From NCBI GenBank assembly GCA_048634345.1, contig JAIWAP010000002.1, positions 1-45,341 of the forward strand: a stretch of 45,341 nt of DNA, written 5' to 3'. The position numbers and the translations under genes were made by a program. The number at the start of each line of letters is the position of its first letter. The stretch's first letter is position 1. The stretch comes from Methanobacteriota archaeon (GTDB taxonomy: Archaea; Halobacteriota; Methanosarcinia; Methanosarcinales; Methanogasteraceae). Of the stretch, positions 2,989-22,161 are shown one piece after another. Below the pieces are notes generated by a model. The model ran no database searches, was not told the DNA's origin, and saw nothing but the letters and a program-made list of their open reading frames with translations.

Positions 2989-4355
2989 TCAATATGGTGA
3001 GGGATCTTTAAGAATGACCGGATAGTCTCTTTCAAACCCATAAAGCAATGCTGTAAGGATGTCTTCCATCGAATCAAATTTAAATCCAAAAAATAAAGAC
3101 CTTATCTTCTCCCAGAGACTTCTTTTACTTCCCAACTTCTCCCAAACGGATCGAAATAGCTGACAGGCGTGTTGCTGCGCCCGATCAACCAAAAACGCCA
3201 GCATCATCAACGTAGCGAAAACAACTGATAGATTCGCCTTTCCATGTCCATAGTTGTGCTCAAAGTGATATCCTTGATTTTTGAGCGTGTTAAATGTCTC
3301 ATTCTCAATTTTCCAGCGTGCTCTACCACCACGCATGATTTTAGAAACATTCTTTTCGGTTACCGGTATATCCGTGACCCAACTGAAATGCAACGTTTTT
3401 TTGGGTGTAGTTTCCCAGTATTCTACAAAATTCACCAACAAATCTTGGTTAGATGCGTTCAAAGGGACTTGATTGATAAAACGGAACTTATAAACAGTAT
3501 CCTCATCTTTATATTCAATTTCTGTTGTTAAACCATCTTTCACAGCAGACTCGACATAATCGAATAAAAAGGCGTGGTCACCTTTCTTCGCCCCTATAAT
3601 ATAATGCAATTGATGTTTTTCCAATTCATGGATGTGCGGAGCATTTGAATTTAATGAGTCTTCCGTTACAATCAGGCGTAAACGCGGATGCACTGCTCTC
3701 AATTTCTCAAAAAACGCTTGCCGGCATTGCGTTCACAATCATTCTTCGTTTCACCATCTTGTTTGATGATCGGCTCTGGTGCTAACGGTATTACTTCCCT
3801 GAACTCCGGGTGAACGATCGCGGCACCTAGCATCTGATGGTAATATGTAATTTCCCCGGTTTTTGAGTTTATTTTCATAGAACACTGATCGCAATGGACG
3901 GTATTTGAAGAGAAATAGCCCGTACCATCTACAGAAAGCAGATAACACCCGTTCATAAAGACCATTTTTTCTAAAACCTTTCCTCTTTGGAGTTGACCAA
4001 AAACATGCTTAAATATGGGACCTATGCAGTCTGGATCCACCCCATCCAGGATCGTGCGCATCTGGGAATCGCTGGGTATGGCACCTATCTTGTATACCGT
4101 CTTCAAATTAGTATCTCCAGATTGCCGCTCTTCAAAAGCAAGTAAAGAAGGATCCTTAAGGGAAAACATGGCAAAAGCTGACATAAGTGCATCAGCTAAG
4201 GGAATCTCGATATCCCCTATCCGATGATCTGGTATTCTCTCAAAACTCGTGCGAACGCTGCTGAATAATGCGTCAGCGTTCAAATCCTTCCGAAGTTTCA
4301 CTTTTCTTTTGCTCATGCATGCAACCATCCATTGAGTTCCAAATTTGCTAAACAT
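2989..4355 (-). mobile_element. DDE transposase gene (IS4/ISNCY-like) split into two ORFs by a frameshift near 3702-3733
   Basis: ORF 3699-4355 (LLSVDGTGYFSS, a DDE first-Asp context) and ORF 2989-3702 (IVTEDSLNSNAP..., RWKIENETFNTLKNQGYHFEHNYGHG) read as one protein if a 1-nt shift is allowed. The two frames overlap only within 3702-3733. IS ends and TIRs could not be located. Confidence 0.7.
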
Positions 4356-4895: not shown

Positions 4896-6824
4896 TCACA
4901 CCTGATCCAGAACCTCTTTGATGAACCTGCCCTCGCCGACGTTCTTCATCACATTCCCGAGCCGCTCTCTGCCCGGCTTTGTCTTGTACTTGACAAGCGT
5001 CTTTGCAACAGCATCGATTAACCCGGGAATCTCCTCTGTCGTACAGAACGACTTTAAGAGTATCCCGTCAGAAGGTCTTCTTGCATCGTTTGCGCCGATC
5101 CACATCGTGTATCCGCGCTCCTTCTCGATTGCAGCCTCGTGCGGGCAGCCCCTGATACACCAGCCACAGTATACGCACTTGTCCTTGTCAATTACTGCCT
5201 TTCCAAGAACGATTGAGATCGCATCGACCCTGCAGAGTTCGGCACAACGCCCGCAACCGTTGCACTTCTCTGTGTCGATCTCAGGGCGCACCTGCCCGAT
5301 CAGACCGACGTCGTGGCGCTTGGCTCGCACACAGTCGTTAGCACAGCCCGCGATACCGATCTTCATCTTGTGCGGCGTCAGTCGCTGAGCAAATGCCATT
5401 GTGAGCTCTCCTGAGAGTTTCTTGGTCTCGACAAGCCCTTCCGTGCAGTAATCCATGCCGACGCACGATGAGACATAGCCCATCCCGATCGTTGCAAGCC
5501 CGCTCGCATAGATCTCGCTCATCAGTTCGTCCACGTTCGTGCCAGGAACTCCCTGAATCTCGACGCTCTGTCGTGTTGTAATCTCAAACGTCCCATCGCC
5601 GTACTTCTTAGCAAGTTCAGCAGATTTCGCAAGCTGATCTGCGCCGATGAGTCCTGCGTTGGTCTTTATCTTCACAAAGAACGTGCCCTTGGTCTCGCCC
5701 ATGACGCCGGGGTAGTCGGACGCCCAGTAGAACTTGACCTTCTTTCCTTCACCGAGCCTACGAGCGAGTTCCCATTTGAACCGCTGCATCTTCAAGCCCG
5801 CAAACTCCTCGATTCGGTGGAGATCGATATCCGACTTTGTCTCGATGTATCCTGCTTCCTCTGCCGCTTTGATCAGCTCTACGCCTTTTTGCGTCCTTCC
5901 CATGAGCGTCGTCCAGCCCTTGCCAGAGCCCATGTATCCTGCCGAGATGTCAGAGAGTTTGGAGACTGCATCCCTGCATATCACGCAGCCGTCCTGAACA
6001 CAGCCCGCATTCCAGAGATCATTGAGATCAAAACCGTGTTCGCCGGAATCGGTCGTCACAACCAGTTCGTCGAGATGTATGGCGGCTCTTCTGACCTTAC
6101 CGAGGTCCACACCCTTCTCTTGCATGAACACTGCCAGCTTGTCGTAGTTGAAGTTCTCGGTGCAGAACAAGCCGATGACGTAAGCGATGTTCGGAACCTT
6201 GATCTTCTCGCCGTTCTCGCCGACCTCAAAGCCGTGCGACATCATGCCCGGGAAGAACTGGGTCTTCCGAACCCCGTATACATGGCATGGCAGCCCGACA
6301 ACCGCGGCATTCGTGATGTCGCCCGCGTCCTTGATCGCTGAGAGCACAGGAATTGCGGAGTATTTCGAGCCAGCAGAATCGAGCAGTTCATCCTTTGACC
6401 GAACAACGCGTGAACTCGGTTTTCCTGCGTCGCCGGTTGCGATCACGCCATCGATCAATCCATTGTCCATACAGTACGAGAGAAGAGCGGTCACAGCGCC
6501 GCCGTCCTGTCCAGCCTCCAGTACCGCAGGATCGGTCGCCCGTGCAGCCACAAGCGTTTCGTACTGTCCGAGCAGCGCCGGTGGTTTTGCTTTGAAACCA
6601 AAGATATTCGGACCGATCTTTGATGCAAAGGTGACCACGCGCTGGCAGACGTCCTTACAAGCGCCCTGCCCGTTTCTCGGACACTCTTCCTTCAGTGCGG
6701 GACCGTCTTCCCGAAACTCAATTCTGTCGTTCGGACAGACCGCGGCACATGCGCCGCAGAATGTACATAATCCCGCGTCGACGACCTCGTCTCGCAGGAA
6801 CCATTTATATTCTTCGTTTGTCAT
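4896..6824 (-). CDS. fsr: coenzyme F420-dependent sulfite reductase (FrhB/FpoF-like N-half fused to a siroheme sulfite reductase C-half)
   Basis: 642 aa. N-terminus CTFCGACAAVCPNDRIEF plus the FrhB-type body. The C-half has a NiR/SiR fold with GCANDC and two ferredoxin-type clusters (CNGCGRCAELC, CVYCGWCIRGCP). This is the two-domain architecture of Fsr. An SD-like GGGG lies about 10 nt upstream. Confidence 0.85.
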   Translation of the reverse strand: MTNEEYKWFLRDEVVDAGLCTFCGACAAVCPNDRIEFREDGPALKEECPRNGQGACKDVCQRVVTFASKIGPNIFGFKAKPPALLGQYETLVAARATDPAVLEAGQDGGAVTALLSYCMDNGLIDGVIATGDAGKPSSRVVRSKDELLDSAGSKYSAIPVLSAIKDAGDITNAAVVGLPCHVYGVRKTQFFPGMMSHGFEVGENGEKIKVPNIAYVIGLFCTENFNYDKLAVFMQEKGVDLGKVRRAAIHLDELVVTTDSGEHGFDLNDLWNAGCVQDGCVICRDAVSKLSDISAGYMGSGKGWTTLMGRTQKGVELIKAAEEAGYIETKSDIDLHRIEEFAGLKMQRFKWELARRLGEGKKVKFYWASDYPGVMGETKGTFFVKIKTNAGLIGADQLAKSAELAKKYGDGTFEITTRQSVEIQGVPGTNVDELMSEIYASGLATIGMGYVSSCVGMDYCTEGLVETKKLSGELTMAFAQRLTPHKMKIGIAGCANDCVRAKRHDVGLIGQVRPEIDTEKCNGCGRCAELCRVDAISIVLGKAVIDKDKCVYCGWCIRGCPHEAAIEKERGYTMWIGANDARRPSDGILLKSFCTTEEIPGLIDAVAKTLVKYKTKPGRERLGNVMKNVGEGRFIKEVLDQV

Positions 6825-6943: not shown

Positions 6944-6963
6944 GTCGAGACATAGTGATAATT

Positions 6964-7482
6964 ATGGAAGATCATCGCAACCATGGAATCAAGTGCTGGA
7001 GAAAGGAGTCGTGTGAGGGTCTACTCGAAACGCTTGCAGTCGATGACATGGACATGAAGATCATCCGGATATTGAGCGAGAACGCGAGGATTAGTAATGT
7101 CGATATCGCAAACAAGATCGGTGTGAGTGAGGGAACGGTCAGACGAAGAATTGCCGAGATGGCTAAAAATAAGGTAATCGAAGGTTTTATCTTACTTCTT
7201 GATTGCAAAGAAGCGGAGAAGTGCGTTAAGGCGTTCATAAGTATGGAAATTGCTGATCCGAACCTGCAGGGCGTTGCGGATGAACTGCTCAAGGATCATG
7301 AACGGATCATCGCCCTATATCGCACAAACACACGATTCAATCTGTTATGCGAGGTCATGTTCAGGTCTATCATTGAATTGCAGGAGTTTATCGACAGATG
7401 TCGTAAAATCGAGGGCATTGTAGATTCGGATGTGAAGATGGTAATCGGATCGTACAAGAAATGCCTGTGGACCGGGATATGA
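6964..7482 (+). CDS. Lrp/AsnC family transcriptional regulator
   Basis: MDMKIIRILSENARISNVDIANKIGVSEGTVRRRIAEM is an HTH_AsnC motif, followed by a RAM/AsnC_trans_reg-like C-terminal half. The start is ambiguous: GTG 6955, ATG 6964 or ATG 7048. Confidence 0.8.
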   Translation: MEDHRNHGIKCWRKESCEGLLETLAVDDMDMKIIRILSENARISNVDIANKIGVSEGTVRRRIAEMAKNKVIEGFILLLDCKEAEKCVKAFISMEIADPNLQGVADELLKDHERIIALYRTNTRFNLLCEVMFRSIIELQEFIDRCRKIEGIVDSDVKMVIGSYKKCLWTGI

Positions 7483-7511: not shown

Positions 7512-7961
7512 CACTCCTCTCGCTCGTCGCCGATCTCAACGACGCCGCGTCCTTCCGGGTAGGTAGAAGAAGACATCCGCCATCGCTCGCGTTGGATTTC
7601 AACGCCTCACCGGGTTGCAAGAGTGATGTGTGCTGCCGGGATCTGCCGGGTATCATGGATCATCGATACATGAAAGTTGTCACGGGTTTGAGGATACGGG
7701 AGCCGATCTTGCATCAACGATCTTCATCATAGCACTCCTTTCGTAAACTCCTCAAACCCGATCCTGTCGGTGAAGTCGCCGATCCGATCATTTGGCTTCG
7801 TATTCGCGGTGTAGTAGTCAAATACGCTCTGCGCAACCTTCTTCGCAACCCCAATCGACTCGACGTGGGGCAGTTCCTTCGCGCTCTGCCTGATTTGATA
7901 TCGCAAGATAGAGCCGACCCCTGTTGTATCTCCCTTGAAATGTACTTTGAAAACCTGCCAT
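7512..7961 (-). pseudogene. decayed second copy of the rbr-like / small sulfite reductase / cupin operon (collapsed by an internal deletion)
   Basis: Nucleotide-level similarity to 12166-12540 and 13390-13451. Examples: gccgatctcaacgacgccgcgtccttc at 7529-7555 versus 12181-12207, and the peptide tail RIGDFTDRIGFEEFTKGVL versus RIGDFIDRIGFEEFTKGVL. The cupin part has several frameshifts. Rbr-like codons 1-27 are joined directly to the last ~50 codons of the reductase near 7874-7882. Confidence 0.75.
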
Positions 7962-7984
7962 GTCTGTAGAATCCACCTTCTGCC

Positions 7985-8633
7985 ACGATTATATGGAAGT
8001 GGAGGTTGAAGCTCATTTTCTTGGAAAATGGATGCAGCACAACAACGGCGCCCGCAGTTAACCGTCCGTTTCGCTGTTTGTGGGAAATTGTGTCGTTGAT
8101 CGCTGCAATCGCAGCATCCATCAAGACCCTCAGGATGAAACGGTTGTTTCTCACAACGGTCCACAGATCGTCCGGGATTGTAAGTACTGTGTTTCGATGA
8201 TGTACGCCCCATAACGCGTTTTGGAGAGATCTTGCCCCTATGTCTGTGTGGTTCTTGCCGCAATTCGAGCAGATACGACTGTTGCATCCGAAATGGACTA
8301 TTAATATGGTTCCGCAATGTTCGCACTGGTGAAGAAGCAGCGGCTCTCATCCTTGCAGGAGTCTGCGCAGCAGCGGCGAAGCCGGCATCTTATTGACTTC
8401 CTTGATCTCAACGTCTCTGAGGTTGTCTTTCCCTGCGAGGCGGAATGCGCCCCACTTATAGTTGTCCTCGAAAATGTGTCGTACAGTGAAGGGGTATCGG
8501 TAAGGAGACCGATGAGAACTGCGACGATGTATGTTTCGGGTGAGGGGATGTCGAGGTACACCGGATATATGTATGGTTGATCTTGGCGATAAGTAGTGCG
8601 TAAGGAGGTTTTGAGTTTATAGTGATATACCAT
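7985..8633 (-). pseudogene. truncated, frameshifted IS91-family-like transposase remnant (Zn-binding domain plus start of the Y2 transposase domain)
   Basis: Minus-strand reading CEHCGTILIVHFGCNSRICSNCGKNHTDIGARSLQNALWGVHHRNTVLTIPDDLWTVVRNNRFILRVLMDAAIAAINDT...AVVVLHPFSKKMSFNLHFHIIVAEGGF matches the IS91 pattern (CxxCG..fsCksRxCpxCg; vlHtfg...hPHiHvlvtgGG). The N-terminal part lies in another frame, and the C-terminal half of the protein is missing. Confidence 0.65.
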
Positions 8634-8640
8634 AAAAAGT

Positions 8641-8790
8641 CACAAATTTGTAGCAGTTTAGTTTCGGTTTAGTTTACTAGTACGTGATGTGCATTGCGAG
8701 CATATAACATTATAGTGCGGAAATCGTCTACAACTTTCAGGAAAAGTACAAATATCGGTGCGGTGACCTGCTAATGATCGACGAGAGGGA
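8641..8790 (-). repeat. duplicate of the rbr-like upstream (promoter) region
   Basis: tagtttactagtacgtgatgtgcattgcgagcatataacattatagtgcggaaatcgtc aligns with 13494-13555 (tagtttactgccgcagtgatatgtattgcgagtatataacattatggtgcggaaatcgtc). The IS91-like remnant separates this segment from the decayed rbr start codon at 7961. Confidence 0.6.
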
Positions 8791-8915: not shown

Positions 8916-9722
8916 ATGAATATTGGAAGAAAAAGCAACTATGTCATTTTGGCAGTGTTGATGATAATCCTGCCAACATTCGTAGCAGCTTGTCCCCCCC
9001 AGGCGTCCATAGGTGACCGTGTCTGGGAGGATCTCAACGAAAACGGCGTACAGGATGATGGCGAAACTGGCATACCTGATGTCACAGTCGAACTCTACGA
9101 CTGCGATGATGTCCTGGTAGACACAACCTACACCGATTCGGAAGGTCTGTACAGCTTCACTGTCGCACCTGGCGACTACTACGTGACGTTCACGACCCCT
9201 GACGGAATGGTCTTCAGTCCGATGGATCAAGGAACGGATGATACTGTAGACAGCGATGCCGATCCTACAACCGGAAAGACTGTGTGTACCACGCTTGCAC
9301 CTGGCGAGAACAATGACACGCTTGACGCAGGAATGTATGTTATGCCACCTCCACCTGGTACCGGGACCCCTGGCTACTGGAAGAATCATCCGAAAGCATG
9401 GCCTGTCGTTGCAATCACCATCGGCGGTGTGACCTATTCAAAGGATGATGCAATAAGTTACATGAGAATGCCTGAAAAAGGTGACAAAACTTACACCATA
9501 TTCAGGGCGCTGGTTTCTGCCAAATTAAACGTACTCATCGGCAACGATGATTCCTGCATCGCAGACACCATTTCTGATGCTGATGCGTGGATGGAAACCT
9601 ACGGACCAGTCGGCAGTGGCATACATGCCAGCAGTGATGCCTGGAAGGAAGGCGAGCCGCTATATTGGGAATTGGATGACTACAATAATGGCGAGCTACC
9701 TTGCGCATTCCCACGTGACTGA
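8916..9722 (+). CDS. secreted/lipobox protein with an SdrD-B/Cna-B-like domain and a GYWKNHP-type C-terminal domain
   Basis: N-terminus NYVILAVLMIILPTFVAAC (VAAC resembles a lipobox). GDRVWEDLNENGVQDDGETGIPDVTVELYD...TDSEGLYSFTVAPGDYYVTF...DSDADPTTGKT...LDAGMY is the SdrD B-like repeat signature. The C-terminal half begins GTPGYWKNHPKAWP. Confidence 0.75.
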   Translation: MNIGRKSNYVILAVLMIILPTFVAACPPQASIGDRVWEDLNENGVQDDGETGIPDVTVELYDCDDVLVDTTYTDSEGLYSFTVAPGDYYVTFTTPDGMVFSPMDQGTDDTVDSDADPTTGKTVCTTLAPGENNDTLDAGMYVMPPPPGTGTPGYWKNHPKAWPVVAITIGGVTYSKDDAISYMRMPEKGDKTYTIFRALVSAKLNVLIGNDDSCIADTISDADAWMETYGPVGSGIHASSDAWKEGEPLYWELDDYNNGELPCAFPRD

Positions 9723-9786: not shown

Positions 9787-10365
9787 TAATTGTGTAGCTT
9801 AGCCTCAGGACTTTCTCTTACAATCTCGCCCCATTCCGATTTTTTGAGGGTACATGAACATTGACCGCGAACTTTGCATCGATTATATCTTTGCTCAATT
9901 ACCGCAGCCATCTTCTCATTGTTGACCCGCACGGTGTCGTAGACCGCGATCGCGGTATCGTTTGGCTCTGTTCTTGCCGAATCCAAGATAATTATGATAC
10001 CATCAGACAGTACCCAGTCATCACCGATCCCGCGAAAACTCAGATACAACTCAGTCTCTCGTCGGAATCACTGTTTAACCAACGCATCCACTCGATGTTA
10101 CACTGCGTTTGAGTTAGTTTTCTGCTGTGAAATTGGTTGTGACCGGCACAATCGAAAAATCCAGTGAAATCACCACATCCTTAAATTTTACCGCAGAGCA
10201 CGCCGAGAACGAAGAGACTCGAATCGGTCTTAAAACTCTTGTACCCTATCTCGCTCTCCGCGTGCGATAAATCACTGACTTTTTAGACAGTGCCTCTCGA
10301 ACGTTTTAGAAGTAATTCCATTCCTTACAGAAGAAATTGCAAGAGTGGATCAAAAACGCAACCGA

Positions 10366-10403
10366 AATAAAATAAAAAAAGAGTGGATGGGCATAGCCAT
10401 CCA
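10366..10403 (-). terminator. hairpin plus oligo-T terminator after the cytochrome gene
   Basis: Stem tggatgg (10384-10390) / ccatcca (10397-10403). On the minus strand it is followed by TTTTTTTATTTTATTT (plus-strand 10366-10380). It lies 20 nt downstream of the stop at 10423. Confidence 0.55.
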
Positions 10404-10422
10404 TCCCTCAATCTCAATCGAT

Positions 10423-11991
10423 TCAGTTCCGCCTCTGCAGCAGATACGCTACAGCCATAAGCCCGCCGAGTGCCGGAATAATCCCGAAACCGGGTGTGGA
10501 TGCGGCTGAGTCGCCGGCACCTTCGCCAGCTCCGATCCCTGTTCCTGCCTTCGCGTTGAAATCAGCGAGATTCAGGCTCTCGCCCGGTTTTGTTGCGCTG
10601 ATCAGGTTTCCTGATGCGTCCTTCTCGACATCGTATCCGAGCGCCTCAAAGTCGATGACGTGATCTTCGTGACAGTCCTTGCAGGTCAACGCTTCGTCCT
10701 TTGGCGAGACCCCGTGGAAGAGCCCCATGTACCGTTTGGCGTTCACATACTGAATCGGGTCATATATCTTGCCGGTCGCCTCAAAGAGTGCCTGAGTCAT
10801 GTTGTCGGTCTTCTTAACAGTCATGACTGTGAATGGCAGCATGTATGTACCGTCCCACGGCTGTCTGCCAAGATGCAGTCTTGCCGCATAAATCTTTGAC
10901 GCAGGATTATCGATTCCACCGACTGGCTTTGCCATCATCACAAATCCGTCGCTATCTGGCACTGCCGGGTCTGCGATGTCCAGTATCTCAGACCATCTGT
11001 TCCACCAGACATGAATCGGTGCAGGGTTGCTCTCACGCACGAGCGTCTCGTGATACATATCCCCCGCACCAAGATGCCGGTTCCCCCAGTCACGGGAGAT
11101 CTCAACGGTCTGCTCCTTGCCATACGATGTGACGTGGCAGGCTGTGCAGTAGATCCTGTCCGTGTGTTGGTTGTACATCGAACCCTCGTAATGCGGTTCA
11201 CTGCCGTGACAGCTCTTACCGGCGCAAGTGACCAGGAAATCGGTATCATCGACCCGCATGTCCATGCCTCTGCCTGACACATGGTGGTCTACGAAGACGT
11301 GACAGTCCTGGCAGGTCATGCCAGCGCTCATGTGGACATCGAGGTCTCGTGAGACCTCATCTGCACTCATCGCAAGCTCGAGATCGCCCCGCTTGTTGTT
11401 GTCGCCGCCGCCCGCTGTTGCATGGCAGCGCAGGCACATCTCACGCGTGGGCAGTCCGACACCGCGGGCTGCTGCGGTCGCATCGATCGACGGATCAGGA
11501 CCGGTAGAAGTCTTCTTGTAGTTCGGTGCGTGGCAGATCAGGCAGTCGATCTTCTCAACCGAAAAATCGTTCTCGAATAAGCCATAGCCTGCATGGCATT
11601 TGCCACAGAGGGCGTCATTCGATTCGGTGCCCACGCAGAACTCATTCACACCCACGAGTTTGCCAGTCATCTCGCCTTCCTTTCCGACGACGTGTTCCGC
11701 CTCGCCCATCCACGTGTTGTGGATCGAGGTTACGAAGCCCTCACCTTCTTCTTGGTGGCACGCAAGACAGGTCTCAGCACCGGTGTATTCATCGATGCCG
11801 GCATGTGTCCCTTCAGCCGCAGATGCGGTTGACGCAATTAGCAGACAGAAAAGCAGAACAACTGGAAACCTCACCGCTGCGATATGGCGCAGGGATGGGG
11901 TGGTCGCATTTTGTGTATTTATTGTCAATTCCTCCTTTCGGTATATCTGTGTAGACATTACGATTTTAGTAATTATATCTACGTTATACAC
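10423..11991 (-). CDS. octahaem c-type cytochrome with signal peptide and PGF-CTERM archaeosortase anchor
   Basis: Haem motifs: CLACH, CGKCH, CLICH, CLRCH, CQDCH, CTACH, CKDCH plus CAGKSCH (CX4CH). Signal-like RFPVVLLFCLLIASTASA/AEG. The C-terminus reads AGTGIGAGEGAGDSAAST-PGF-GIIPALGGLMAVAYLL-QRRN. The start is uncertain: GTG 11991, ATG 11958, TTG 11928 (2 nt after AGGAGG) or GTG 11874. Confidence 0.85.
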   Translation of the reverse strand: MYNVDIITKIVMSTQIYRKEELTINTQNATTPSLRHIAAVRFPVVLLFCLLIASTASAAEGTHAGIDEYTGAETCLACHQEEGEGFVTSIHNTWMGEAEHVVGKEGEMTGKLVGVNEFCVGTESNDALCGKCHAGYGLFENDFSVEKIDCLICHAPNYKKTSTGPDPSIDATAAARGVGLPTREMCLRCHATAGGGDNNKRGDLELAMSADEVSRDLDVHMSAGMTCQDCHVFVDHHVSGRGMDMRVDDTDFLVTCAGKSCHGSEPHYEGSMYNQHTDRIYCTACHVTSYGKEQTVEISRDWGNRHLGAGDMYHETLVRESNPAPIHVWWNRWSEILDIADPAVPDSDGFVMMAKPVGGIDNPASKIYAARLHLGRQPWDGTYMLPFTVMTVKKTDNMTQALFEATGKIYDPIQYVNAKRYMGLFHGVSPKDEALTCKDCHEDHVIDFEALGYDVEKDASGNLISATKPGESLNLADFNAKAGTGIGAGEGAGDSAASTPGFGIIPALGGLMAVAYLLQRRN

Positions 11992-12036
11992 AATGCTGTT
12001 ACGATAAACTATTTTAATCTTTGGCGAGATTCGCGG

Positions 12037-12375
12037 TCACAGCACCCGCGTCTTCTCCTTCGGTCTTGGCGTCTTCACGACGAGGAAACGAAACACCGAC
12101 TCGCTTTCATTAAGCAGACGGTGCGGAACTCGGGAAGGACTCTCGATGAACTGATCTGCCACGACCTCCTCGCGTTCGTCGCCGATCTCAACGACGCCGC
12201 GTCCTTCGAGTATGTAGAAGAAGACGTCAACCGGAGTTGCGTGGAGTTTCAACGCCTCGCCGGGCTGCAACGTGATGTGTACTGCCTGGACATGCTCGGT
12301 GTCATGAATCATCGACGCATGAACACCGTGCGGGTTTGGGGATACAGGTGCGCTTATTGCATCGACGATCTTCAT
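12037..12375 (-). CDS. cupin domain protein
   Basis: 112 aa. HITLQPGEALKLHATPVDVFFYILEGRGVVEIGDE...PSRVPHRLLNES fits the two-motif cupin pattern. Its start overlaps the stop of the upstream gene (TGATG, shared nt 12375). Confidence 0.75.
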   Translation of the reverse strand: MKIVDAISAPVSPNPHGVHASMIHDTEHVQAVHITLQPGEALKLHATPVDVFFYILEGRGVVEIGDEREEVVADQFIESPSRVPHRLLNESESVFRFLVVKTPRPKEKTRVL

Positions 12376-13055
12376 CAGAGCACTCCTTTCGTAAACTCCT
12401 CAAACCCGATCCGGTCGATGAAGTCGCCGATCCGCTCCTTTGGCTTTGCATTCGCGGTGTAGTAGTCAAAGACGCTCTGTGCAACCTTCTTCGCATCATC
12501 AATCGACTCGACGTAGGTCAACTCCTTTGCGATCCTCGGCTTCTTGCCAGCCTCGCCTCCGACAACCACCTTGAAGCCGTTCTTGAAGCCGAAGAAACCG
12601 AGGTCCTTAACCCATGACTCGCCGCAGCAGTTCGGACATCCTGATACGCCGATCTTGAACTTCGCTGGAAGGTTCATGCCGTGATACGCATCATGCAAAG
12701 CCATCCCGAGACCGAGGCTGTCTGAGATGCCTTTCTTGCAGAAGGTGGTTCCAGGGCAGGTCTTGACGCTCCGGACGCAGAGCCCGATTGCAGCACCTGG
12801 GCTCATCCCGAGGTCATTCCATGCGGAATCGATGTCTTCTTCCTTCAAGCCCACAATGACCATCCGCTGTGCGCTTGTTATCTTTATCGCGGCTGCACCG
12901 TACTTCTCTGCGACTTCCGCAATCTTTCGCAGGGTATCTGGCGAGACCACGCCTGCCGGAGTGTCCGGCGCTATCGCATAAGTCTCTCTATCTCTCTGCA
13001 CGACTGCTCCCTTCTCCGGTATGTCGTTCTTCTTCTCGTTACTCATCTTTATCAC
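12375..13055 (-). CDS. small (~25 kDa) siroheme-type sulfite/nitrite reductase (alSir / P590 / Dsr-LP-like)
   Basis: NiR/SiR ferredoxin-like half-domain (AIKITSAQRMVIVGL). Cys clusters CVRSVKTCPGTTFC and GCPNCC are arranged as in siroheme-[4Fe-4S] enzymes. The C-terminal half of Fsr in this window is paralogous in layout. The start is GTG 13055 or ATG 13046. Confidence 0.8.
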   Translation of the reverse strand: MIKMSNEKKNDIPEKGAVVQRDRETYAIAPDTPAGVVSPDTLRKIAEVAEKYGAAAIKITSAQRMVIVGLKEEDIDSAWNDLGMSPGAAIGLCVRSVKTCPGTTFCKKGISDSLGLGMALHDAYHGMNLPAKFKIGVSGCPNCCGESWVKDLGFFGFKNGFKVVVGGEAGKKPRIAKELTYVESIDDAKKVAQSVFDYYTANAKPKERIGDFIDRIGFEEFTKGVL

Positions 13056-13067
13056 ATCTCTGTGTTT

Positions 13068-13451
13068 TCACCATCCATGCGCATCGAATCGCATGAGAAT
13101 TCCTTTCAGCCCTGCTTTATGCCGGGCTTCGTCCTTTGATGCTCGCTCGAAGAACCGAGCCGCATCGATGTTGCCTTCCGCTTCGGCTGCCTTCGCAGCG
13201 TCCGCTTTCTCGGTTTCAGCCATGGTCTCGCCTTTGAGCATCATCTCGAGGTTTGCCTTAGTGTCGCCGATCATGCCGAGTATCTCTGCAATCTCTGCGG
13301 CATGCCATGACTCGTCCATCGCGAGCTGCCTGAAGTACATGGCTGCGGTGTGATGTCCTTCGCGCTCTGCCTGCTTTGACATCGCAAGGTAGAGCCCGAC
13401 CTCTGTTGTCTCTCCCTTGAAGTGTGCTTTGAGTTCGTCTTTCGTTGCCAT
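13068..13451 (-). CDS. rubrerythrin/ferritin-like diiron protein without a rubredoxin domain
   Basis: 127 aa. ETTEVGLYLAMSKQAEREGH and ETMAETEKADAAKAAE...EARH contain repeated E...ExxH-type helices of the rubrerythrin four-helix bundle. SD AGGAGGT upstream of the ATG at 13451. Confidence 0.8.
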   Translation of the reverse strand: MATKDELKAHFKGETTEVGLYLAMSKQAEREGHHTAAMYFRQLAMDESWHAAEIAEILGMIGDTKANLEMMLKGETMAETEKADAAKAAEAEGNIDAARFFERASKDEARHKAGLKGILMRFDAHGW

Positions 13452-13560
13452 TTAGAGACCTCCTACATTGTTAGATGGTTGCGTAAACCTTTTAATAGTT
13501 TACTGCCGCAGTGATATGTATTGCGAGTATATAACATTATGGTGCGGAAATCGTCCATAA
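13452..13560 (-). promoter_or_regulatory. promoter/operator region of the rbr-like operon (conserved in the decayed copy)
   Basis: Minus-strand TATA-like ctattaaaag (13487-13496) and ttatatac (13527-13534). The segment 13494-13555 is conserved with 8660-8720 even though the coding part of that copy has decayed. Confidence 0.45.
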
Positions 13561-13877
13561 ATCCCTGCAAAAGTACGAAGATCAATATGGTGATGCGCAA
13601 TTTGACGAAAGAGACACGTTGATCCCAGACATATTTCGTGAGAACGCACGCAAACCGCAAACCGCAAACCGAGATCGCTGCGAGACCCCGGATCCCATAG
13701 CAGTGTTACTGGATTTTTCGGTCAGATTCTCAGTGCCCCCAATTGATACTGGTCCCAAAATGTTACTGCGAACTGTCCGGTTTTTGGGAATAGTGAACTG
13801 TGAACTATTCACCAAACACAGGATCTGCCGGGGTATGAAGGTTTTTTTGAATGGTATGTGTTTAGCTGAGGCGAAAA

Positions 13878-14176: not shown

Positions 14177-15733
14177 TTATGCGTCAACCCCCCCAGTGAT
14201 CTTCAGCGCATACCGTAAGCCCTCCTGTATCGACCGCCTTGTCACCAGTTCTGACATATCAATGCCAAGATCAACAAGCGTATGTGCAGACTCAGGTCGC
14301 ACTCCCGTGATGATGCACCCTGCGCCGAGCAGTTGCGCAGCTCTGACGATCTTGATCAGTTGACCCGTCACATACGTGTTGATCTCATGAACGCCTGTCA
14401 CATCAAGTATCACGACGTCTGACTGTGTCCTCGTGATCTCGGTTAGAAGCGTCTCCATGATGATTCCAATCCTGTGTTCATCGATCATTCCGATGAGCGG
14501 CAGCGCAAGGATTCCGTCCCAGACCGCAACAACCGGTGCGGACAGGTCCTCCTGCGAGATTCGCAGTTTTTCGACGAGTTCCTTTAAGTATTCTTCCGAT
14601 TCTACAAGTTTTTTCGTCCGCTTCTCGACCTGCGACTCAAGGCTTATACTGTACTCCTCCAGTTCCATCCTTGATCTCCTGATCTCACCAGTCATCTCAT
14701 CAAAGGATCTTGAGAGATCCCCGATCTCATCTTCCGCATCTGTCCCGACTCTTTGATCCAGGTTCCCGCTCTTCACCTCTTCAACACCTCTGGAAAGTTT
14801 CAAAATCGGCTCTGTTATCGTTCCGGCAAGCATCATGGAAACTATGGTGCCTGCAATCAGGAGAACCGCAACAACCACCATCGTTACGCGCGTTAGCCCG
14901 GCAACCGGTGCGAGTGCTTCTTCCTCATTCATCTCTGCAACCAGCACCCACTCCGTCCCTGATATGTGCTTATGAACCTGGAGGACATCGGCACCCAGAT
15001 AATTCGTGGTCAAGACCGCGGTATGTCTACAACCATCTCTCCCTGTGTGTTTCATCTCACTGGCTTTCGTCTTTAAAACGGCATCCTCTACAAACCTCGA
15101 TGGCGTTATCATGTAGCCGTCACAGTTTACGAGGTATATCTCACCGGTTTCACCGAGACCGGTTCTTTCTGTTGTGATCGCGAATAATCCCTTTTCAGTG
15201 TCAAAATTTAGCACAAGAACTCCCGAAAATTCACCGTTCACCAGAATTGGTGCTGATGCGCTGATAACAGTGTTTCCGTTGGATATGGCGGTGCGGAGGT
15301 CTCCGATGTAAACCCCGTTTTTACCCTTCAAGAAGAAGTCGTCGGTGCTCCTGTCAAGCCCGACATCAGCACGACTGGACGTAATCACTGTGCCGTTTTT
15401 ATCCAGCACCCTGACCCTTGAAATCTCGTCATGAGACTGTATTACACTTTTTATCCTGCGATTAGCCTGCTCCATTCTCAACGCATGATCCTTACTTTCA
15501 TCTACTGCATCTCTAAAGGAATTTTCTGTCGCCATCATCCCGGTGAGCGCCCTGTACCCAATTAAATCAGTCTCGACGTGATCCGCTCTCGACTGCGCAG
15601 TTGACTCCAGATGAAGGTAAACCTCCTCTTCAAGCATATTCTCTGCGATGCTCTGGCTGACCACGATCGTGGTAACGCCTGTTACCATGATGAGTGCAAT
15701 CGTGATTGCAAAGATCTTTATCTGTATCTTCAT
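14177..15733 (-). CDS. membrane sensor: dCache-like periplasmic domain, HAMP, coiled coil, RsbR-type STAS domain
   Basis: TM1 IFAITIALIMVTGVTTIVV, a ~270-aa extracytoplasmic region, TM2 VTMVVVAVLLIAGTIVSMML, and HAMP (PILKLSRGVEEVKSGNLDQRV...IGDLSRSFDEMT). C-terminal STAS: LSAPVVAVWDGILALPLIGMIDEHRIGIIMETLL...VVILDVTGVHEINTYVTGQLIKIVRAAQLLGAGCIITGVRPESAHTLVDLG. ATG 15733 is preferred over GTG 15769. Confidence 0.8.
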   Translation of the reverse strand: MKIQIKIFAITIALIMVTGVTTIVVSQSIAENMLEEEVYLHLESTAQSRADHVETDLIGYRALTGMMATENSFRDAVDESKDHALRMEQANRRIKSVIQSHDEISRVRVLDKNGTVITSSRADVGLDRSTDDFFLKGKNGVYIGDLRTAISNGNTVISASAPILVNGEFSGVLVLNFDTEKGLFAITTERTGLGETGEIYLVNCDGYMITPSRFVEDAVLKTKASEMKHTGRDGCRHTAVLTTNYLGADVLQVHKHISGTEWVLVAEMNEEEALAPVAGLTRVTMVVVAVLLIAGTIVSMMLAGTITEPILKLSRGVEEVKSGNLDQRVGTDAEDEIGDLSRSFDEMTGEIRRSRMELEEYSISLESQVEKRTKKLVESEEYLKELVEKLRISQEDLSAPVVAVWDGILALPLIGMIDEHRIGIIMETLLTEITRTQSDVVILDVTGVHEINTYVTGQLIKIVRAAQLLGAGCIITGVRPESAHTLVDLGIDMSELVTRRSIQEGLRYALKITGGVDA

Positions 15734-15778
15734 CCGCCCAGCCCCCGACCAACTCCGAATCCGGAACACTACAAACCA

Positions 15779-16549
15779 TCATTTCCCGTCATTCAATCTG
15801 CCTATCGCGTACCTGAGCCCTTCCTGCATGTCTGCCATCGTGGTCAGGTCACCGATGTCGGCGCCCAGATGGATTATCGTCTGCGCAATATCCGGACCGA
15901 TGCCAGTCATTATGCATTCCGCGCCAAGCAGCCTCGACGCGCTCACAATCTTCAGTAGATGGCTCGTCACATTGGTATCGACCGAACGGACACCGGTGAT
16001 GTCGAGTATGACAAACTCTGACTGGGTCGCAACGATTCGCTCAAGCAGGATCTCGGTTATGGTCTGCGCCCTCTTGCTGTCGATCGACCCGATCAGGGGA
16101 AGCGCAAGCACCCTGTCCCATATCTGGACAACCGGTGTTGAGAGCTCCTCCTGCGCTGCTTTGAGCTGGTTTGCAAGCACGGTAAGCTCCTGTTCTCGCG
16201 CCAACACATCTGTTATGTCTCGTATTGTCATGAGCGCCCCGAAATACTCGCCATTCGAATGCACGCCAGCGACCGCTATATCCAAACTTCTGCCAGCAAC
16301 ATCGAGCGTCGTTTTGACCACCTCGGCGGAGCTCGATTTTAGTCGGTCAAGTGCCTCGATCATGTCCTGTTGTTGTGACTGCGGATGACATGCAAGAATA
16401 TCCTTCCCGATAATATCTTCCGGGAGGTTTAGCAGGGTCTCTGCACGTTCGTTCACGAACTCGATTTTGCCGCCCGGATTCACAAGGATCACTCCATCGG
16501 CAATACATGCAAGTATCGCCTCCAGTTTCTTCTTATCCACTATTATCAC
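15779..16549 (-). CDS. PAS domain plus RsbR-type STAS domain protein
   Basis: N-terminal PAS (ILACIADGVILVNPGGKIEFVNERAETLL). C-terminal LSTPVVQIWDRVLALPLIGSIDSKRAQTITEILL...FVILDITGVRSVDTNVTSHLLKIVSASRLLGAECIMTGIGPDIAQTIIHLG closely follows the RsbR C-terminal pattern. Confidence 0.8.
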   Translation of the reverse strand: MIIVDKKKLEAILACIADGVILVNPGGKIEFVNERAETLLNLPEDIIGKDILACHPQSQQQDMIEALDRLKSSSAEVVKTTLDVAGRSLDIAVAGVHSNGEYFGALMTIRDITDVLAREQELTVLANQLKAAQEELSTPVVQIWDRVLALPLIGSIDSKRAQTITEILLERIVATQSEFVILDITGVRSVDTNVTSHLLKIVSASRLLGAECIMTGIGPDIAQTIIHLGADIGDLTTMADMQEGLRYAIGRLNDGK

Positions 16550-17786
16550 CCATTCTGTGCTTTGGCAATGTAAAATAAAATGCGCTCCCTCCCCCGATCT
16601 CGCTCTCAGCCCAGATCTCGCCGCCGTGCAGCTCTATGTACCCTTTCGCAAGCGTGAGCCCGATTCCGATCCGGTCACAGTGTCTGGTAAGCGTCGCATC
16701 CGCCATAAAGAAGCGATCAAAGATTTTTGGCAGATTCTTCTTTGAAATTCCAACCCCGTTATCGCTAATCTTTGTAAGGACATCATCTCCGCGATCGTCC
16801 ATGGAAATCCGGATATTTCCGTCAATTCCCATGTAATATGCCGCATTAAACACAATATTATCCATGACGCGTGTGACCTTCTGTTGATCACAATCGATCA
16901 CCAACGACATCGGGATGTTCACGTCTACTGCATGGTTCTTTTCGGCGATCAATGCCTGATGCCGCGCAAGAACCTCGCTTACGACCTCGCATAACCGCAC
17001 CGGGGTATAGTTGAGCTTCAATATGCCTGCATCAAGGTCTGCGAGGTCGAGCATGTCGCCGAGCATCAATTTGAGTTTATTCGCATTGGTTTTTATATTA
17101 TAGATATAACGCTTCTGCTTGTCAGTGAGATTCGCAGACCGAGCATCGATCAGGTCACTGAACCCGATGACCGCGGCAAGTGGTGTGCGCATCTCATGTG
17201 CGACCACGTTGATGAAATCCACCTTCATCCGCTCCAGTTCTTCCCGCCCAGTCACCTCGTTTGCAATCTCTATGACCAGCCGGCTGCCATCGGGTAGGTG
17301 GAGTGGTGCAGCCGCTATCTCAAATATCCGCCCGTCTTTATCGGTAGCTGTGTATCTGAACTGGTCCTCGCCTTTGTGGATGATCTCCTTGACGCCACAG
17401 ATTTCGCATGGCTCATCCCGTCCGAAAAACACTTCATAGCACTTCTTGCCGACGCTGTTGCCAAATATCCTGATCAGGAACTCGTTCATGTACACGATCT
17501 CGTAGTTCTCGTTTTCGATTGCCACGCCGGCGGGCATATTCAAAAGCAGCAGTTCAAGCTCTTCCTTGCTATAATCTCCCGAGTCATCGACCTGTGCATG
17601 TGCCCCCATAATCCACCATAATATCATTATAAAGAAGGGTACATAAACGTTGAGGTCGATCGCTGCTGGGATTTTCTGGCAGGTGTTATCGGTTAGGGTA
17701 AGTTGCAGGTCAGATCCGTGCAACCTGCTCACATAAATATCGCTGCCGCATAATACGCCCCAAAGCAGAGAAGAAACACGCCGCAT
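16533..17786 (-). CDS. sensor histidine kinase (TM, Cys-containing PAS, HisKA, HATPase_c)
   Basis: H-box FINVVAHEMRTPL. N/G boxes VMDNIVFNAAYY, DNGVGI and GIGLTLAKG. The PAS domain contains CYEVFFGRDEPCEICG. The stop overlaps the start of the next gene by 17 nt. The annotated start overlaps the LysE gene by 58 nt, so the true start may be internal. Confidence 0.8.
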   Translation of the reverse strand: MRRVSSLLWGVLCGSDIYVSRLHGSDLQLTLTDNTCQKIPAAIDLNVYVPFFIMILWWIMGAHAQVDDSGDYSKEELELLLLNMPAGVAIENENYEIVYMNEFLIRIFGNSVGKKCYEVFFGRDEPCEICGVKEIIHKGEDQFRYTATDKDGRIFEIAAAPLHLPDGSRLVIEIANEVTGREELERMKVDFINVVAHEMRTPLAAVIGFSDLIDARSANLTDKQKRYIYNIKTNANKLKLMLGDMLDLADLDAGILKLNYTPVRLCEVVSEVLARHQALIAEKNHAVDVNIPMSLVIDCDQQKVTRVMDNIVFNAAYYMGIDGNIRISMDDRGDDVLTKISDNGVGISKKNLPKIFDRFFMADATLTRHCDRIGIGLTLAKGYIELHGGEIWAESEIGGGSAFYFTLPKHRMGDNSG

Positions 17787-22038: not shown

Positions 22039-22161
22039 ATGAAAGATCAGGGCAACACATTCATCGAAAATATCCTGCGAGAAGGGAAGGAGATTAAAAT
22101 CAGTGACTTCCTCTCCGCAGTTCACTCAACCACCGACAAAATCATATTAGAGAAGCCATGA
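22039..22161 (+). pseudogene. 40-codon stub resembling the C-terminal end of a nucleotidyltransferase/HEPN-system protein
   Basis: MKDQGNTFIENILREGKEIKISDF... The FIExILxEGxxI ending is typical of C-termini of MNT/HEPN-pair proteins. The stop overlaps the ATG of the next gene. Weak call. Confidence 0.25.

What the first reader, a model, noticed from the sequence alone, without database searches (positions are those of the whole stretch)
10366..13560. Rubrerythrin-like / small siroheme sulfite reductase / cupin operon runs into a PGF-CTERM-anchored octahaem cytochrome c
Seen: four minus-strand genes with almost no spacing. The rbr-like stop is at 13068 and the reductase start at 13046/13055. 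The reductase and cupin share nt 12375 in a TGATG overlap. The cupin stop at 12037 lies 45 nt from the cytochrome ORF. The only hairpin+oligo-T terminator lies after the cytochrome (10366-10403). The 522-aa product has seven CXXCH motifs plus one CX4CH (CAGKSCH), a signal-like RFPVVLLFCLLIASTASA segment, and a Gly/Ala/Ser/Thr linker followed by PGF, a hydrophobic helix and an RRN tail. Established: multihaem c-type cytochromes are phylogenetically restricted in this lineage (Methanosarcinales, ANME, Methanoperedens-type archaea). PGF-CTERM proteins are archaeosortase A substrates. Small ~25 kDa siroheme sulfite reductases (alSir/P590/Dsr-LP type) are cytoplasmic. Inference: I do not recognise a cytoplasmic sulfite/peroxide-detoxification trio genetically coupled to a surface-anchored octahaem protein as a described module. 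The cytochrome could be an extracytoplasmic S-oxyanion or N-oxide reductase, or an electron conduit co-regulated with oxidant defence. Caveat: the AT-rich 45-nt gap contains TATA-like sequence, so the cytochrome may have its own promoter.
Basis: partly seen in the sequence, partly recalled or inferred. Interest (0 to 1): 0.72.

Follow-up and report, generated by a model that had tools for sequence, protein, structure and literature searches.

The report
Surface octahaem reductase in oxyanion-defence island
A methane-oxidising archaeon (ANME-2) encodes a lipid-anchored, cell-surface relative of the bacterial octahaem "tetrathionate" reductase; across many ANME-2 genomes this gene sits next to cytoplasmic nitrite/sulfite-reducing and oxidant-defence genes, which points to a two-compartment shield for the methane enzyme and gives a testable clue to what this poorly understood enzyme family does.

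Summary
Four minus-strand genes (rubrerythrin-like, small sirohaem reductase alSir, a 112-aa cupin, an octahaem cytochrome) lie head to tail. The only terminator-like hairpin plus T-run follows the cytochrome. One correction: homologues place the cytochrome start near 11928/11922, not 11991. The protein is therefore about 500 aa and the spacer about 108 nt.

The cytochrome belongs to the octahaem tetrathionate reductase (OTR) family. PDB 1SP3 is its only sequence and fold match. The catalytic Lys, the active-site Cys, eight haem motifs and seven distal His are conserved. It carries a Sec-like signal and a PGF-CTERM anchor.

The linkage is not chance. Of 28 archaeal OTR genes with upstream sequence, 18 follow cupin or alSir directly. 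A second ANME lineage has cupin–AsnC–FsrII–OTR or cupin–OTR. No bacterial OTR relative shares this context. The window also holds group-II Fsr (a characterised F420H2 nitrite reductase) and an AsnC regulator. In bacteria the same cupin family sits next to alSir, hybrid-cluster protein and NapH-like polyferredoxin.

Best reading: the extracytoplasmic arm of a nitrite/hydroxylamine/sulfite defence island that protects Mcr. Co-transcription in this window is unproven. I found no paper describing the linkage. It is a new variant of a known kind, of moderate interest.

The parts
13511..13593 (-). Upstream region of the rbr-like gene with a TATA-like TTATATA; putative promoter of the gene set
   Evidence: An 80%-identical copy lies at 8684-8766, upstream of the decayed second copy. 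Sequence read. Promoter function is inferred.
13068..13451 (-). Rubrerythrin-like di-iron protein (127 aa) without a rubredoxin domain (erythrin/sulerythrin-like)
   Evidence: PF02915, 50 bits. PDB rubrerythrin and sulerythrin hits. Two ExxH motifs (DESWH, DEARH) seen in the sequence.
12375..13055 (-). Small sirohaem sulfite/nitrite reductase (alSir type, 223-226 aa; ATG at 13046 is the likelier start)
   Evidence: PF03460 + PF01077. Best NCBIfam match is the NirB sirohaem domain. CX5C...CX3C cysteines are in the sequence. 84-96% identical copies sit in the same position in ANME-2 loci.
12037..12375 (-). 112-aa cupin_2 protein; its start overlaps the reductase stop (TGATG); no signal peptide
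   Evidence: PF07883. The family is 61-75% identical in bacteria, with invariant N14, H16, H45, D50, E63, H85, N89.
11929..12036 (-). Conserved AT-rich cupin-OTR spacer: TATA-like AAAGATTAAAATAG, then GGAGG 8 nt before the canonical start position
   Evidence: Near-identical in 9 loci whose OTR proteins are only 77-97% identical. No T-run of 5 or more.
10423..11928 (-). OTR-family octahaem cytochrome c (about 500 aa). Includes a Sec-type signal peptide, 8 haem motifs, catalytic Lys90 (11661-11659), Cys98, and CX4CH at 11226-11206
   Evidence: TIGR04315, 224 bits. 1SP3 at E = 1e-48. Foldseek finds 1SP3 only, E = 4e-28, TM 0.73. Invariant residues.
10426..10497 (-). PGF-CTERM sorting signal (TPGFGIIPALGGLMAVAYLLQRRN), preceded by a G/A/S/T linker
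   Evidence: PF18204, 18.1 bits against an 18.8 cut-off; TIGR04126, 21.1 against 24.5. The motif is conserved in almost all archaeal homologues.
10374..10403 (-). Terminator-like hairpin plus T7 run after the cytochrome
6955..7482 (+). AsnC/Lrp-type regulator, divergent from Fsr; conserved member of the island
   Evidence: PF13404 and PF01037. 83-94% identical copies lie between OTR and Fsr in many loci.
4896..6824 (-). [quoted passage not shown]
   Evidence: FrhB + NIR_SIR fusion. In the alignment to 7NP8, Arg355 is Lys and the Arg423 region is missing, which matches the group-II signature in PMC6286981. Function is taken from PMC9295563.
7514..7950 (-). Decayed second copy (rbr'-'alSir-cupin') with an internal deletion, abutting an IS91-family transposase fragment (about 7942-8052)
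   Evidence: 84-95% nt identity to 12166-12534 and 13356-13432. tblastn matches alSir residues 176-226 at 84%. Y2_Tnp hit.

Best explanation
The window comes from an ANME-2 (ANME-2c-like) methanotrophic archaeon. It carries a conserved defence island against small oxidising oxyanions.

The cytochrome is an OTR-family octahaem enzyme. It is exported by a Sec signal. It is then probably cleaved and lipid-anchored at the outer face of the membrane through its PGF-CTERM signal. There its Lys-ligated catalytic haem would reduce nitrite or hydroxylamine, and/or sulfite or other S-oxyanions, before they enter the cell. Electrons would come from the cell's extracytoplasmic multihaem/methanophenazine network.

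Oxyanion that does get in would be reduced in the cytoplasm by the small sirohaem reductase (alSir) and by FsrII, the F420H2 nitrite reductase. The di-iron rubrerythrin-like protein would remove peroxide-type oxidants. The cupin has no known activity but is the most tightly linked partner. An AsnC-type regulator sits in the island. The target being protected would be the Ni(I)-F430 of methyl-coenzyme M reductase.

Shown here: family membership, conserved catalytic residues, export and anchor signals, and conserved linkage.
Inferred: the substrate, the electron donor, co-regulation, and the protective role.
For: Family and catalytic site:
- TIGR04315, 224 bits.
- 1SP3 is the only PDB sequence hit (E = 1e-48) and the only fold hit (E = 4e-28, TM 0.73).
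- Eight haem motifs, seven non-motif His, and Lys90 (equivalent to OTR Lys56) are invariant in 45 sequences. Cys98 (equivalent to Cys64) is conserved in at least 90%.

Location: signal peptide and PGF-CTERM.

Linkage:
- 18 of 28 archaeal OTR genes with at least 1.2 kb of upstream sequence follow cupin or alSir within 400 nt. 14 have Rbr + alSir. 22 of 32 contigs combine OTR with Rbr, alSir, cupin or Fsr.
- In the paralogue clade that contains the window, 13 of 14 members follow the trio.
- Spacers are only 5-40 nt in other genomes.
- An independent arrangement, cupin-AsnC-FsrII-OTR, occurs in a second lineage.
- The island abuts mcrB in L004, L005 and L025 and on fosmid GZfos27A8.
- No bacterial OTR relative has these neighbours.

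Chemistry of the partners:
- ANME-2c FsrII reduces nitrite (Km 5 uM) but does not reduce sulfite with F420H2. Nitrite inactivates Mcr (PMC9295563).
- OTR enzymes reduce nitrite and hydroxylamine best in vitro. A 2026 mutant study suggests sulfite reduction (PMC12949373).
- In bacteria the same cupin family sits beside alSir, hybrid-cluster protein and NapH-like polyferredoxin.
- alSir and FsrII from the related fosmid are among the most abundant ANME sulfur-pathway proteins in seep metaproteomes (PMC6286981).
Against: - There is no expression or activity data for this cytochrome. I could not find it in the stored part of the metaproteome table.
- In this window the 108-nt conserved TATA-like spacer suggests an own promoter, so coupling may be regulatory or only positional.
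- The canonical start codon is ATA here, and ACG in two relatives. This may mean weak translation.
- About a third of archaeal OTR genes lack the partners: L018, L031 (ANME-3), L032-L034, L040, and L001 after a transposase.
- The physiological substrate of every OTR-family member is unsettled.
- No electron donor is encoded in the locus.
- The score is below the NCBIfam subfamily cut-off (224 against 375), so specificity may differ from the Shewanella enzyme.
Confidence: 0.55

Rival explanations
1. Respiratory terminal reductase. The surface OTR homologue accepts methane-derived electrons and reduces an external acceptor (nitrite, sulfite, thiosulfate/tetrathionate or polysulfide) for energy conservation. 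This would give ANME-2 a partner-independent or auxiliary electron sink.
For: It sits outside the membrane, where ANME-2 deliver electrons through multihaem cytochromes (PMC9012536). OTR was first proposed as a respiratory enzyme. Many genomes carry tandem paralogues. OTR modules are fused into giant multihaem proteins with 16-23 haems in L033 and L034. The island lies next to mcr in some genomes.
Against: The neighbours are cytoplasmic detoxification-type enzymes and a regulator. There is no quinol/methanophenazine dehydrogenase or other energy-coupling module. Sulfite and zero-valent sulfur inhibited ANME-2a/2c in microcosms (PMC6286981). Deleting OTR in Shewanella gives no respiratory phenotype on tetrathionate. 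The non-ATG start in this window argues against high expression.
Confidence: 0.12
2. Non-catalytic electron conduit. The protein only relays electrons at the cell surface, as MmcA does, and its position next to the reductase genes has no chemical meaning.
For: MmcA, an electron conduit, is the sister family of OTR (bioRxiv 10.1101/2023.04.20.537704). Small PGF-CTERM multihaem proteins are common in ANME and have been proposed as relays.
Against: The Lys ligand is invariant across 45 sequences and the active-site Cys is conserved in at least 90% of them. These are the features that separate catalytic OTR from MmcA. The linkage is conserved in three arrangements.
Confidence: 0.12
3. Neighbours by history only. 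The cytochrome has its own promoter and an unrelated role. The adjacency persists because the region is a mobile, rearrangement-prone island inherited as a block.
For: Conserved TATA-like 108-nt spacer. Transposase genes and remnants lie in and near the island. A decayed duplicate is present. Several lineages have a solitary OTR.
Against: The adjacency survives divergence to about 67-75% protein identity. It survives re-shuffling into cupin-OTR and cupin-AsnC-FsrII-OTR. Spacers of 5-40 nt in other genomes leave no room for a separate promoter. Cupin remnants precede the second paralogue, so cupin-OTR was duplicated as a unit.
Confidence: 0.15

Closest known systems
Octahaem tetrathionate reductase OTR of Shewanella oneidensis (SO4144, PDB 1SP3)
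   Same: Same fold (TM 0.73). Eight haems in the same order. The Lys that ligates the catalytic haem 2 and the nearby Cys are conserved. Both are extracytoplasmic.
   Different: Only 28% identical and below the TIGR04315 cut-off. Haem motif 6 is CX4CH instead of CXXCH. This trait is shared with 35%-identical bacterial relatives. It is lipid-anchored by PGF-CTERM rather than soluble in the periplasm. The gene context is different: bacterial relatives sit after a small protein and a DUF3373 protein.
FsrI / FsrII (FNiR) oxyanion detoxification in methanogens and ANME
   Same: Same proposed purpose: reducing sulfite or nitrite to protect Mcr. FsrII is part of the same conserved island.
   Different: Fsr enzymes are cytoplasmic sirohaem enzymes driven by F420H2. 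The protein studied here is a c-type haem enzyme outside the membrane, and its link to Fsr has not been described.
MccA/SirA octahaem sulfite reductase and NrfA/ONR/HAO multihaem nitrite/hydroxylamine enzymes
   Same: Periplasmic multihaem enzymes that carry out six-electron oxyanion reductions. Related haem packing (literature).
   Different: No sequence or fold match was retrieved to any of them. There is no CX15CH/Cu site, no CXXCK motif and no Tyr cross-link motif.
MmcA of Methanosarcina (Rnf-associated heptahaem conduit)
   Same: Sister family of OTR within Methanosarcinales; surface or membrane electron transfer.
   Different: MmcA has seven haems, lacks the catalytic Lys/Cys site and is always in the rnf operon. 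Here there are eight motifs, Lys and Cys are present, and no rnf genes are nearby.
OTR homologues noted in Methanohalophilus, Archaeoglobales and Ignicoccus
   Same: Archaeal members of the OTR family have been listed before (PMC4429474; bioRxiv 10.1101/2023.04.20.537704; InterPro counts in PMC5244752).
   Different: Those reports give a different context (thermosome, biotin transporter) or none. They do not mention a PGF-CTERM anchor or linkage to alSir, cupin or FsrII.

Membership tests
OTR family (Pfam PF11783 / NCBIfam TIGR04315) | Eight c-type haem-binding motifs in conserved order | tested here: met
   Seven CXXCH plus one CX4CH, all invariant in 45 sequences. Motif 6 is CX4CH where 1SP3 has CENCH.
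OTR family (Pfam PF11783 / NCBIfam TIGR04315) | Lys (Lys56 in SO4144) as ligand of the catalytic haem 2, and a nearby active-site Cys (Cys64) | tested here: met
   TGK(90)LVGVNEFC(98) aligns to RGK(56)KNSINNFC(64). K90 is invariant and C98 is conserved in at least 90%. Ligation itself is inferred from the alignment.
OTR family (Pfam PF11783 / NCBIfam TIGR04315) | Fold of PDB 1SP3 | tested here: met
   AF2 model (pLDDT 72.7). Foldseek against the PDB gives one significant hit, 1SP3, at E = 4e-28 with TM 0.64/0.73.
OTR family (Pfam PF11783 / NCBIfam TIGR04315) | Score above the curated model cut-off | tested here: inconclusive
   Pfam PF11783: 47.4 against 22.1, passes. NCBIfam TIGR04315: 223.9 against 375, fails. 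I therefore file it in the wider family as a distinct subfamily, not as an orthologue of SO4144.
OTR family (Pfam PF11783 / NCBIfam TIGR04315) | Reduction of tetrathionate, nitrite or hydroxylamine | not testable with these tools
   Needs purified protein.
PGF-CTERM / archaeosortase A substrates | C-terminal PGF + hydrophobic helix + basic tail after a Thr/Ser/Gly-rich linker, with an N-terminal signal peptide | tested here: met
   ...GAGDSAASTPGFGIIPALGGLMAVAYLLQRRN-stop and RFPVVLLFCLLIASTASA|AEG. The HMM scores fall just under the cut-offs (18.1 against 18.8; 21.1 against 24.5). The motif is conserved in homologues.
PGF-CTERM / archaeosortase A substrates | artA (and, for the haems, a cytochrome c maturation system) in the genome | not testable with these tools
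   Neither is encoded in the 45-kb window. The literature reports archaeosortase A in ANME-2a and 2d and PGF-CTERM multihaem proteins in ANME (PMC5244752; PMC9012536).
alSir (small assimilatory-type sirohaem sulfite reductase) | A single NIR_SIR_ferr + NIR_SIR unit of about 25 kDa with sirohaem-[4Fe-4S] cysteines | tested here: met
   PF03460 + PF01077, 226 aa. CPGTTFC and CPNCC motifs in the sequence. Substrate was not tested. The best NCBIfam hit is the NirB sirohaem domain.
Group II Fsr (FNiR) | FrhB-Sir fusion in which the two sulfite-binding Arg residues of FsrI are replaced | tested here: met
   Domain fusion. In the alignment to 7NP8, Arg355 is Lys and the Arg423 position falls in a gap (residue numbers are my own count). 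87-96% identical to Fsr of ANME-2 loci.
Rubrerythrin | Di-iron four-helix bundle plus a C-terminal rubredoxin domain | tested here: not met
   The di-iron ExxH pairs are present, but the protein ends at 127 aa with no rubredoxin CxxC pairs. It is erythrin/sulerythrin-like, not a true rubrerythrin.
MccA / MmcA / NrfA (considered and rejected) | CX15CH + Cu site (MccA); seven haems in the rnf operon (MmcA); CXXCK (NrfA) | tested here: not met
   None of these motifs or contexts is present. There are no PDB sequence or fold hits to them.

The most novel reading that the evidence does not exclude
The lipid-anchored OTR homologue is a true terminal reductase. It would let marine ANME-2 pass methane-derived electrons to nitrite or to sulfur intermediates (sulfite, thiosulfate, tetrathionate, polysulfide) at the cell surface. 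That would be a partner-independent or auxiliary mode of anaerobic methane oxidation, with alSir, FsrII and cupin handling the intracellular products. It would also settle the long-open question of what the OTR family does in vivo.
Probability: 0.1. Interest if true: 0.85.

Novelty: new variant of a known kind. Interest (0 to 1): 0.55.

Why it matters
Three open questions meet at this locus.

1. The physiological role of the OTR family has been unsettled since 2004 (PMC12949373). A conserved association with nitrite- and sulfite-reducing enzymes in an unrelated lineage is independent evidence for the substrate class.

2. The roles of alSir and FsrII are unknown or only recently revised, even though they are among the most abundant non-catabolic ANME-2 proteins in seep metaproteomes. 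An extracytoplasmic partner would reframe them as one layered system.

3. Whether marine ANME-2 handle nitrogen or sulfur oxyanions themselves bears on the old debate about ANME sulfur metabolism and on how seep methane filters respond to nitrite and oxygen pulses.

The hypothesis is directly testable with the Methanosarcina acetivorans expression system already used for FsrII.

Tried and rejected
- MccA, NrfA, ONR/HAO and MmcA identities: rejected. There is no sequence or fold match and the defining motifs are absent.
- CX4CH as a unique feature: rejected. It is invariant in the 35%-identical bacterial relatives as well.
- GTG 11991 and ATG 11957 as the start: rejected. The upstream ATG is ACG in five relatives, and homologues start 8 nt after GGAGG.
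- A shared operator between the rbr, OTR and fsr/asnC upstream regions: only chance-level 8-9-mers were found.
- Cytochrome c maturation genes or artA in the window: none found.
- Expression data: the Krukenberg 2018 supplements are not held. The Chadwick 2022 supplements have no relevant hit. The Yu 2018 metaproteome table lists GZ27A8_43 (alSir), _52 (FsrII) and _56 (McrB), but no cytochrome in the stored part.
- One look-up (P0100) returned nothing.
- Sigma-70-type promoter scan: at background level and not relevant to archaea.

Full report
**Observation.**
The four minus-strand ORFs are present as described:
- rbr-like, 13068-13451;
- small NIR_SIR reductase, 12375-13055 (alternative ATG at 13046);
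- cupin, 12037-12375, overlapping the reductase stop in TGATG;
- a cytochrome ORF, 10423-11991, with seven CXXCH motifs plus CAGKSCH.

The only minus-strand hairpin plus T-run in 10200-13800 lies just after the cytochrome, at 10403-10374. None of the three junctions contains a run of five or more T.

One correction is needed. Close homologues start MNTQNAT..., 8 nt after a conserved GGAGG. The in-frame upstream ATG of the window is ACG in five relatives. The real start is therefore at about 11928 (TTG) or 11922. The protein is about 500 aa and the spacer to the cupin is about 108 nt.

**Organism and surroundings.**
The best cytochrome hits are ANME-2 and 'Methanosarcinales archaeon' MAGs, and the Eel River fosmid GZfos27A8 at 84%. 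The window also encodes Ftr, H+-PPase and other archaeal housekeeping genes.

Downstream on the same strand lies a FrhB-Sir fusion, Fsr, at 4896-6824. An AsnC-type regulator at 6955-7482 lies divergent from it. Aligned to MtFsr (7NP8), the window Fsr has Lys at Arg355 and a gap at Arg423. This is the group-II signature described by Yu et al. (PMC6286981). The ANME-2c group-II enzyme is an F420H2-dependent nitrite and hydroxylamine reductase that cannot reduce sulfite with F420H2 (PMC9295563).

**What the cytochrome is.**
- NCBIfam's best model is the 'tetrathionate reductase family octaheme c-type cytochrome' (TIGR04315, 224 bits, below the 375 cut-off). Pfam PF11783 passes.
- The only PDB sequence hit is Shewanella OTR, 1SP3 (E = 1e-48).
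- An AlphaFold model (pLDDT 72.7) has 1SP3 as its only significant fold match (E = 4e-28, TM 0.73).
- In a 45-sequence alignment, the eight haem motifs, seven non-motif histidines (enough for seven bis-His haems) and Lys90 are invariant. Cys98 is nearly so.
- Lys90 and Cys98 align with OTR Lys56 and Cys64. These are the features that define the OTR catalytic site and that MmcA lacks.
- The CX4CH motif replaces CENCH of 1SP3. The 35%-identical bacterial relatives share it, so it is a subfamily trait.
- The N-terminus is a Sec-type signal. The C-terminus is a canonical PGF-CTERM, with HMM scores just under threshold, and is conserved in nearly all archaeal homologues.

The protein is therefore an extracytoplasmic, probably lipid-anchored, catalytic OTR-type enzyme.

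**Is the linkage real?**
Look-ups of individual homologues and one scan of GTDB species genomes were mapped with tblastn. They give 32 archaeal contigs.
- Of 28 OTR genes with at least 1.2 kb of upstream sequence, 18 have cupin or alSir within 400 nt upstream on the same strand. 14 have Rbr + alSir.
- 22 of 32 contigs combine OTR with Rbr, alSir, cupin or Fsr.
- The fullest form is DUF2249-flavodoxin-Rbr-alSir(-alSir)-cupin-OTR-DUF302(-cupin'-OTR2), then AsnC on the opposite strand, then FsrII and, after one further gene, mcrB.
- Fosmid GZfos27A8 has alSir as gene 43, FsrII as gene 52 and McrB as gene 56, and it also encodes a close homologue of the cytochrome (84% identical); where that gene sits relative to the other three was not checked.
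- A neighbour-joining tree separates two paralogue clades. The window protein falls in the clade where 13 of 14 members directly follow the trio.
- A cupin-based metagenome scan found a second ANME lineage with cupin-AsnC-FsrII-OTR or cupin-OTR. L009 has a 5-nt cupin-OTR gap inside a rubrerythrin/flavodiiron/rubredoxin cluster.
- Bacterial OTR relatives have none of these neighbours. They follow a small protein and a DUF3373 protein.

**Operon or not?**
Two spacer classes exist. One is about 35-40 nt, which leaves no room for a promoter. The other is about 106-110 nt. It is nearly identical between genomes whose proteins are 77-97% identical, and it contains a TATA-like AAAGATTAAAATAG. The window belongs to the second class. 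An internal promoter is plausible and read-through is neither excluded nor shown. At the canonical start position the codon is ATG in four relatives, ATA in the window and two others, and ACG in two.

**The partners.**
- The rbr-like protein keeps both ExxH di-iron motifs but has no rubredoxin domain.
- The small reductase has the alSir architecture and sirohaem/Fe-S cysteines. Its physiological role is unknown, although it is abundant in seep metaproteomes.
- The cupin belongs to a strikingly conserved 112-aa family, 61-75% identical in Chloroflexota and other bacteria. In about 62 bacterial contigs, its recurrent neighbours are a NapH-like membrane polyferredoxin (about 20), MarR (about 11), hybrid-cluster protein Hcp (about 10), alSir (about 8) and small ferredoxins.
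- From my own knowledge, Hcp is an NO/hydroxylamine reductase of nitrosative-stress regulons.
- The common theme is reduction of small N- or S-oxyanions in anaerobes.

**Mechanism proposed.**
This is a two-compartment defence. The surface OTR enzyme reduces nitrite or hydroxylamine, and/or sulfite and related S-oxyanions, outside the membrane. alSir and FsrII remove what enters. The di-iron protein deals with peroxide. AsnC regulates. Mcr is the protected target.

In vitro, OTR enzymes prefer nitrite and hydroxylamine. A 2026 Shewanella ANA-3 study found no role in tetrathionate respiration and suggested sulfite reduction. It stressed that the physiological function has never been established (PMC12949373). 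I put 0.55 on the defence model and lean slightly towards N-oxyanions because of FsrII and Hcp.

The rivals are weaker. They are a respiratory terminal reductase (0.12), a pure electron conduit (0.12) and adjacency by history only (0.15). The conserved catalytic residues argue against the conduit. The detox-type neighbours argue against respiration. The three independent arrangements argue against mere history.

**Novelty.**
Archaeal OTR homologues have been listed before (PMC4429474; bioRxiv 10.1101/2023.04.20.537704; domain counts in PMC5244752). PGF-CTERM multihaem proteins in ANME are also known. I found no paper that identifies an OTR homologue in ANME-2 as part of the alSir/FsrII neighbourhood, or that notes the cupin link. 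The library is limited to open-access text. I rate the finding as a new variant of a known kind, with interest 0.55.

Noticed in passing
window 7514-8052 (-), and 8684-8766: A decayed second copy of the gene set: the rbr 5' end is fused to the last 51 codons of alSir and a frame-broken cupin. It abuts an IS91-family (Y2_Tnp) transposase fragment. A copy of the rbr promoter region lies 0.7 kb further on. The island has been duplicated and then eroded.
   Followed up: yes
window 11928-11920 (-); L010, L035 (ATA); L029, L038 (ACG): At the conserved start position, 8 nt after GGAGG, the cytochrome gene has ATG in some genomes but ATA or ACG in others. A conserved TTG lies 6 nt upstream. This could mean near-cognate initiation or down-tuned translation.
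   Followed up: partly
L033:56 (1749 aa, 23 CXXCH) and L034:2671 (1282 aa, 16 CXXCH): In two Methanosarcinales MAGs the OTR module is fused into giant multihaem proteins with a C-terminal membrane helix. In these the active-site Cys is replaced by Tyr.
   Followed up: no
L013, L015, L016, L020, L036, L072, L074: Many ANME-2 genomes carry two tandem OTR paralogues, separated by a membrane-anchored DUF302 protein and a cupin remnant. Cupin-OTR was therefore duplicated as a unit.
   Followed up: partly
L065-L066, L087-L148 (bacterial contigs): The 112-aa cupin is an unusually conserved family. In bacteria it repeatedly sits next to a NapH-like membrane polyferredoxin, MarR, hybrid-cluster protein and alSir. 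This is an uncharacterised but recurrent module.
   Followed up: partly
window 8916-9722 (+): A secreted SdrD_B-domain (adhesin-like) protein is inserted between the cytochrome and the decayed copy. The same neighbour follows the OTR gene in L012.
   Followed up: no
window 14177-17786 (-): Directly upstream of the rbr promoter lies a sensory gene string: dCache-HAMP-STAS, PAS-STAS and a PAS histidine kinase. This is not seen upstream of the island in the other loci examined.
   Followed up: no
window 29204-29953 (-): A TauE/SafE-family (sulfite exporter family) membrane protein lies 16 kb from the island. Any link to it is unknown.
   Followed up: no
window 22158-22996 (+); 2989-4355 (-): An MNT/HepT-type nucleotidyltransferase toxin-antitoxin pair. 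Just beyond Fsr there is a DDE transposase with an associated ORF, at the place where related loci continue towards the mcr operon.
   Followed up: no
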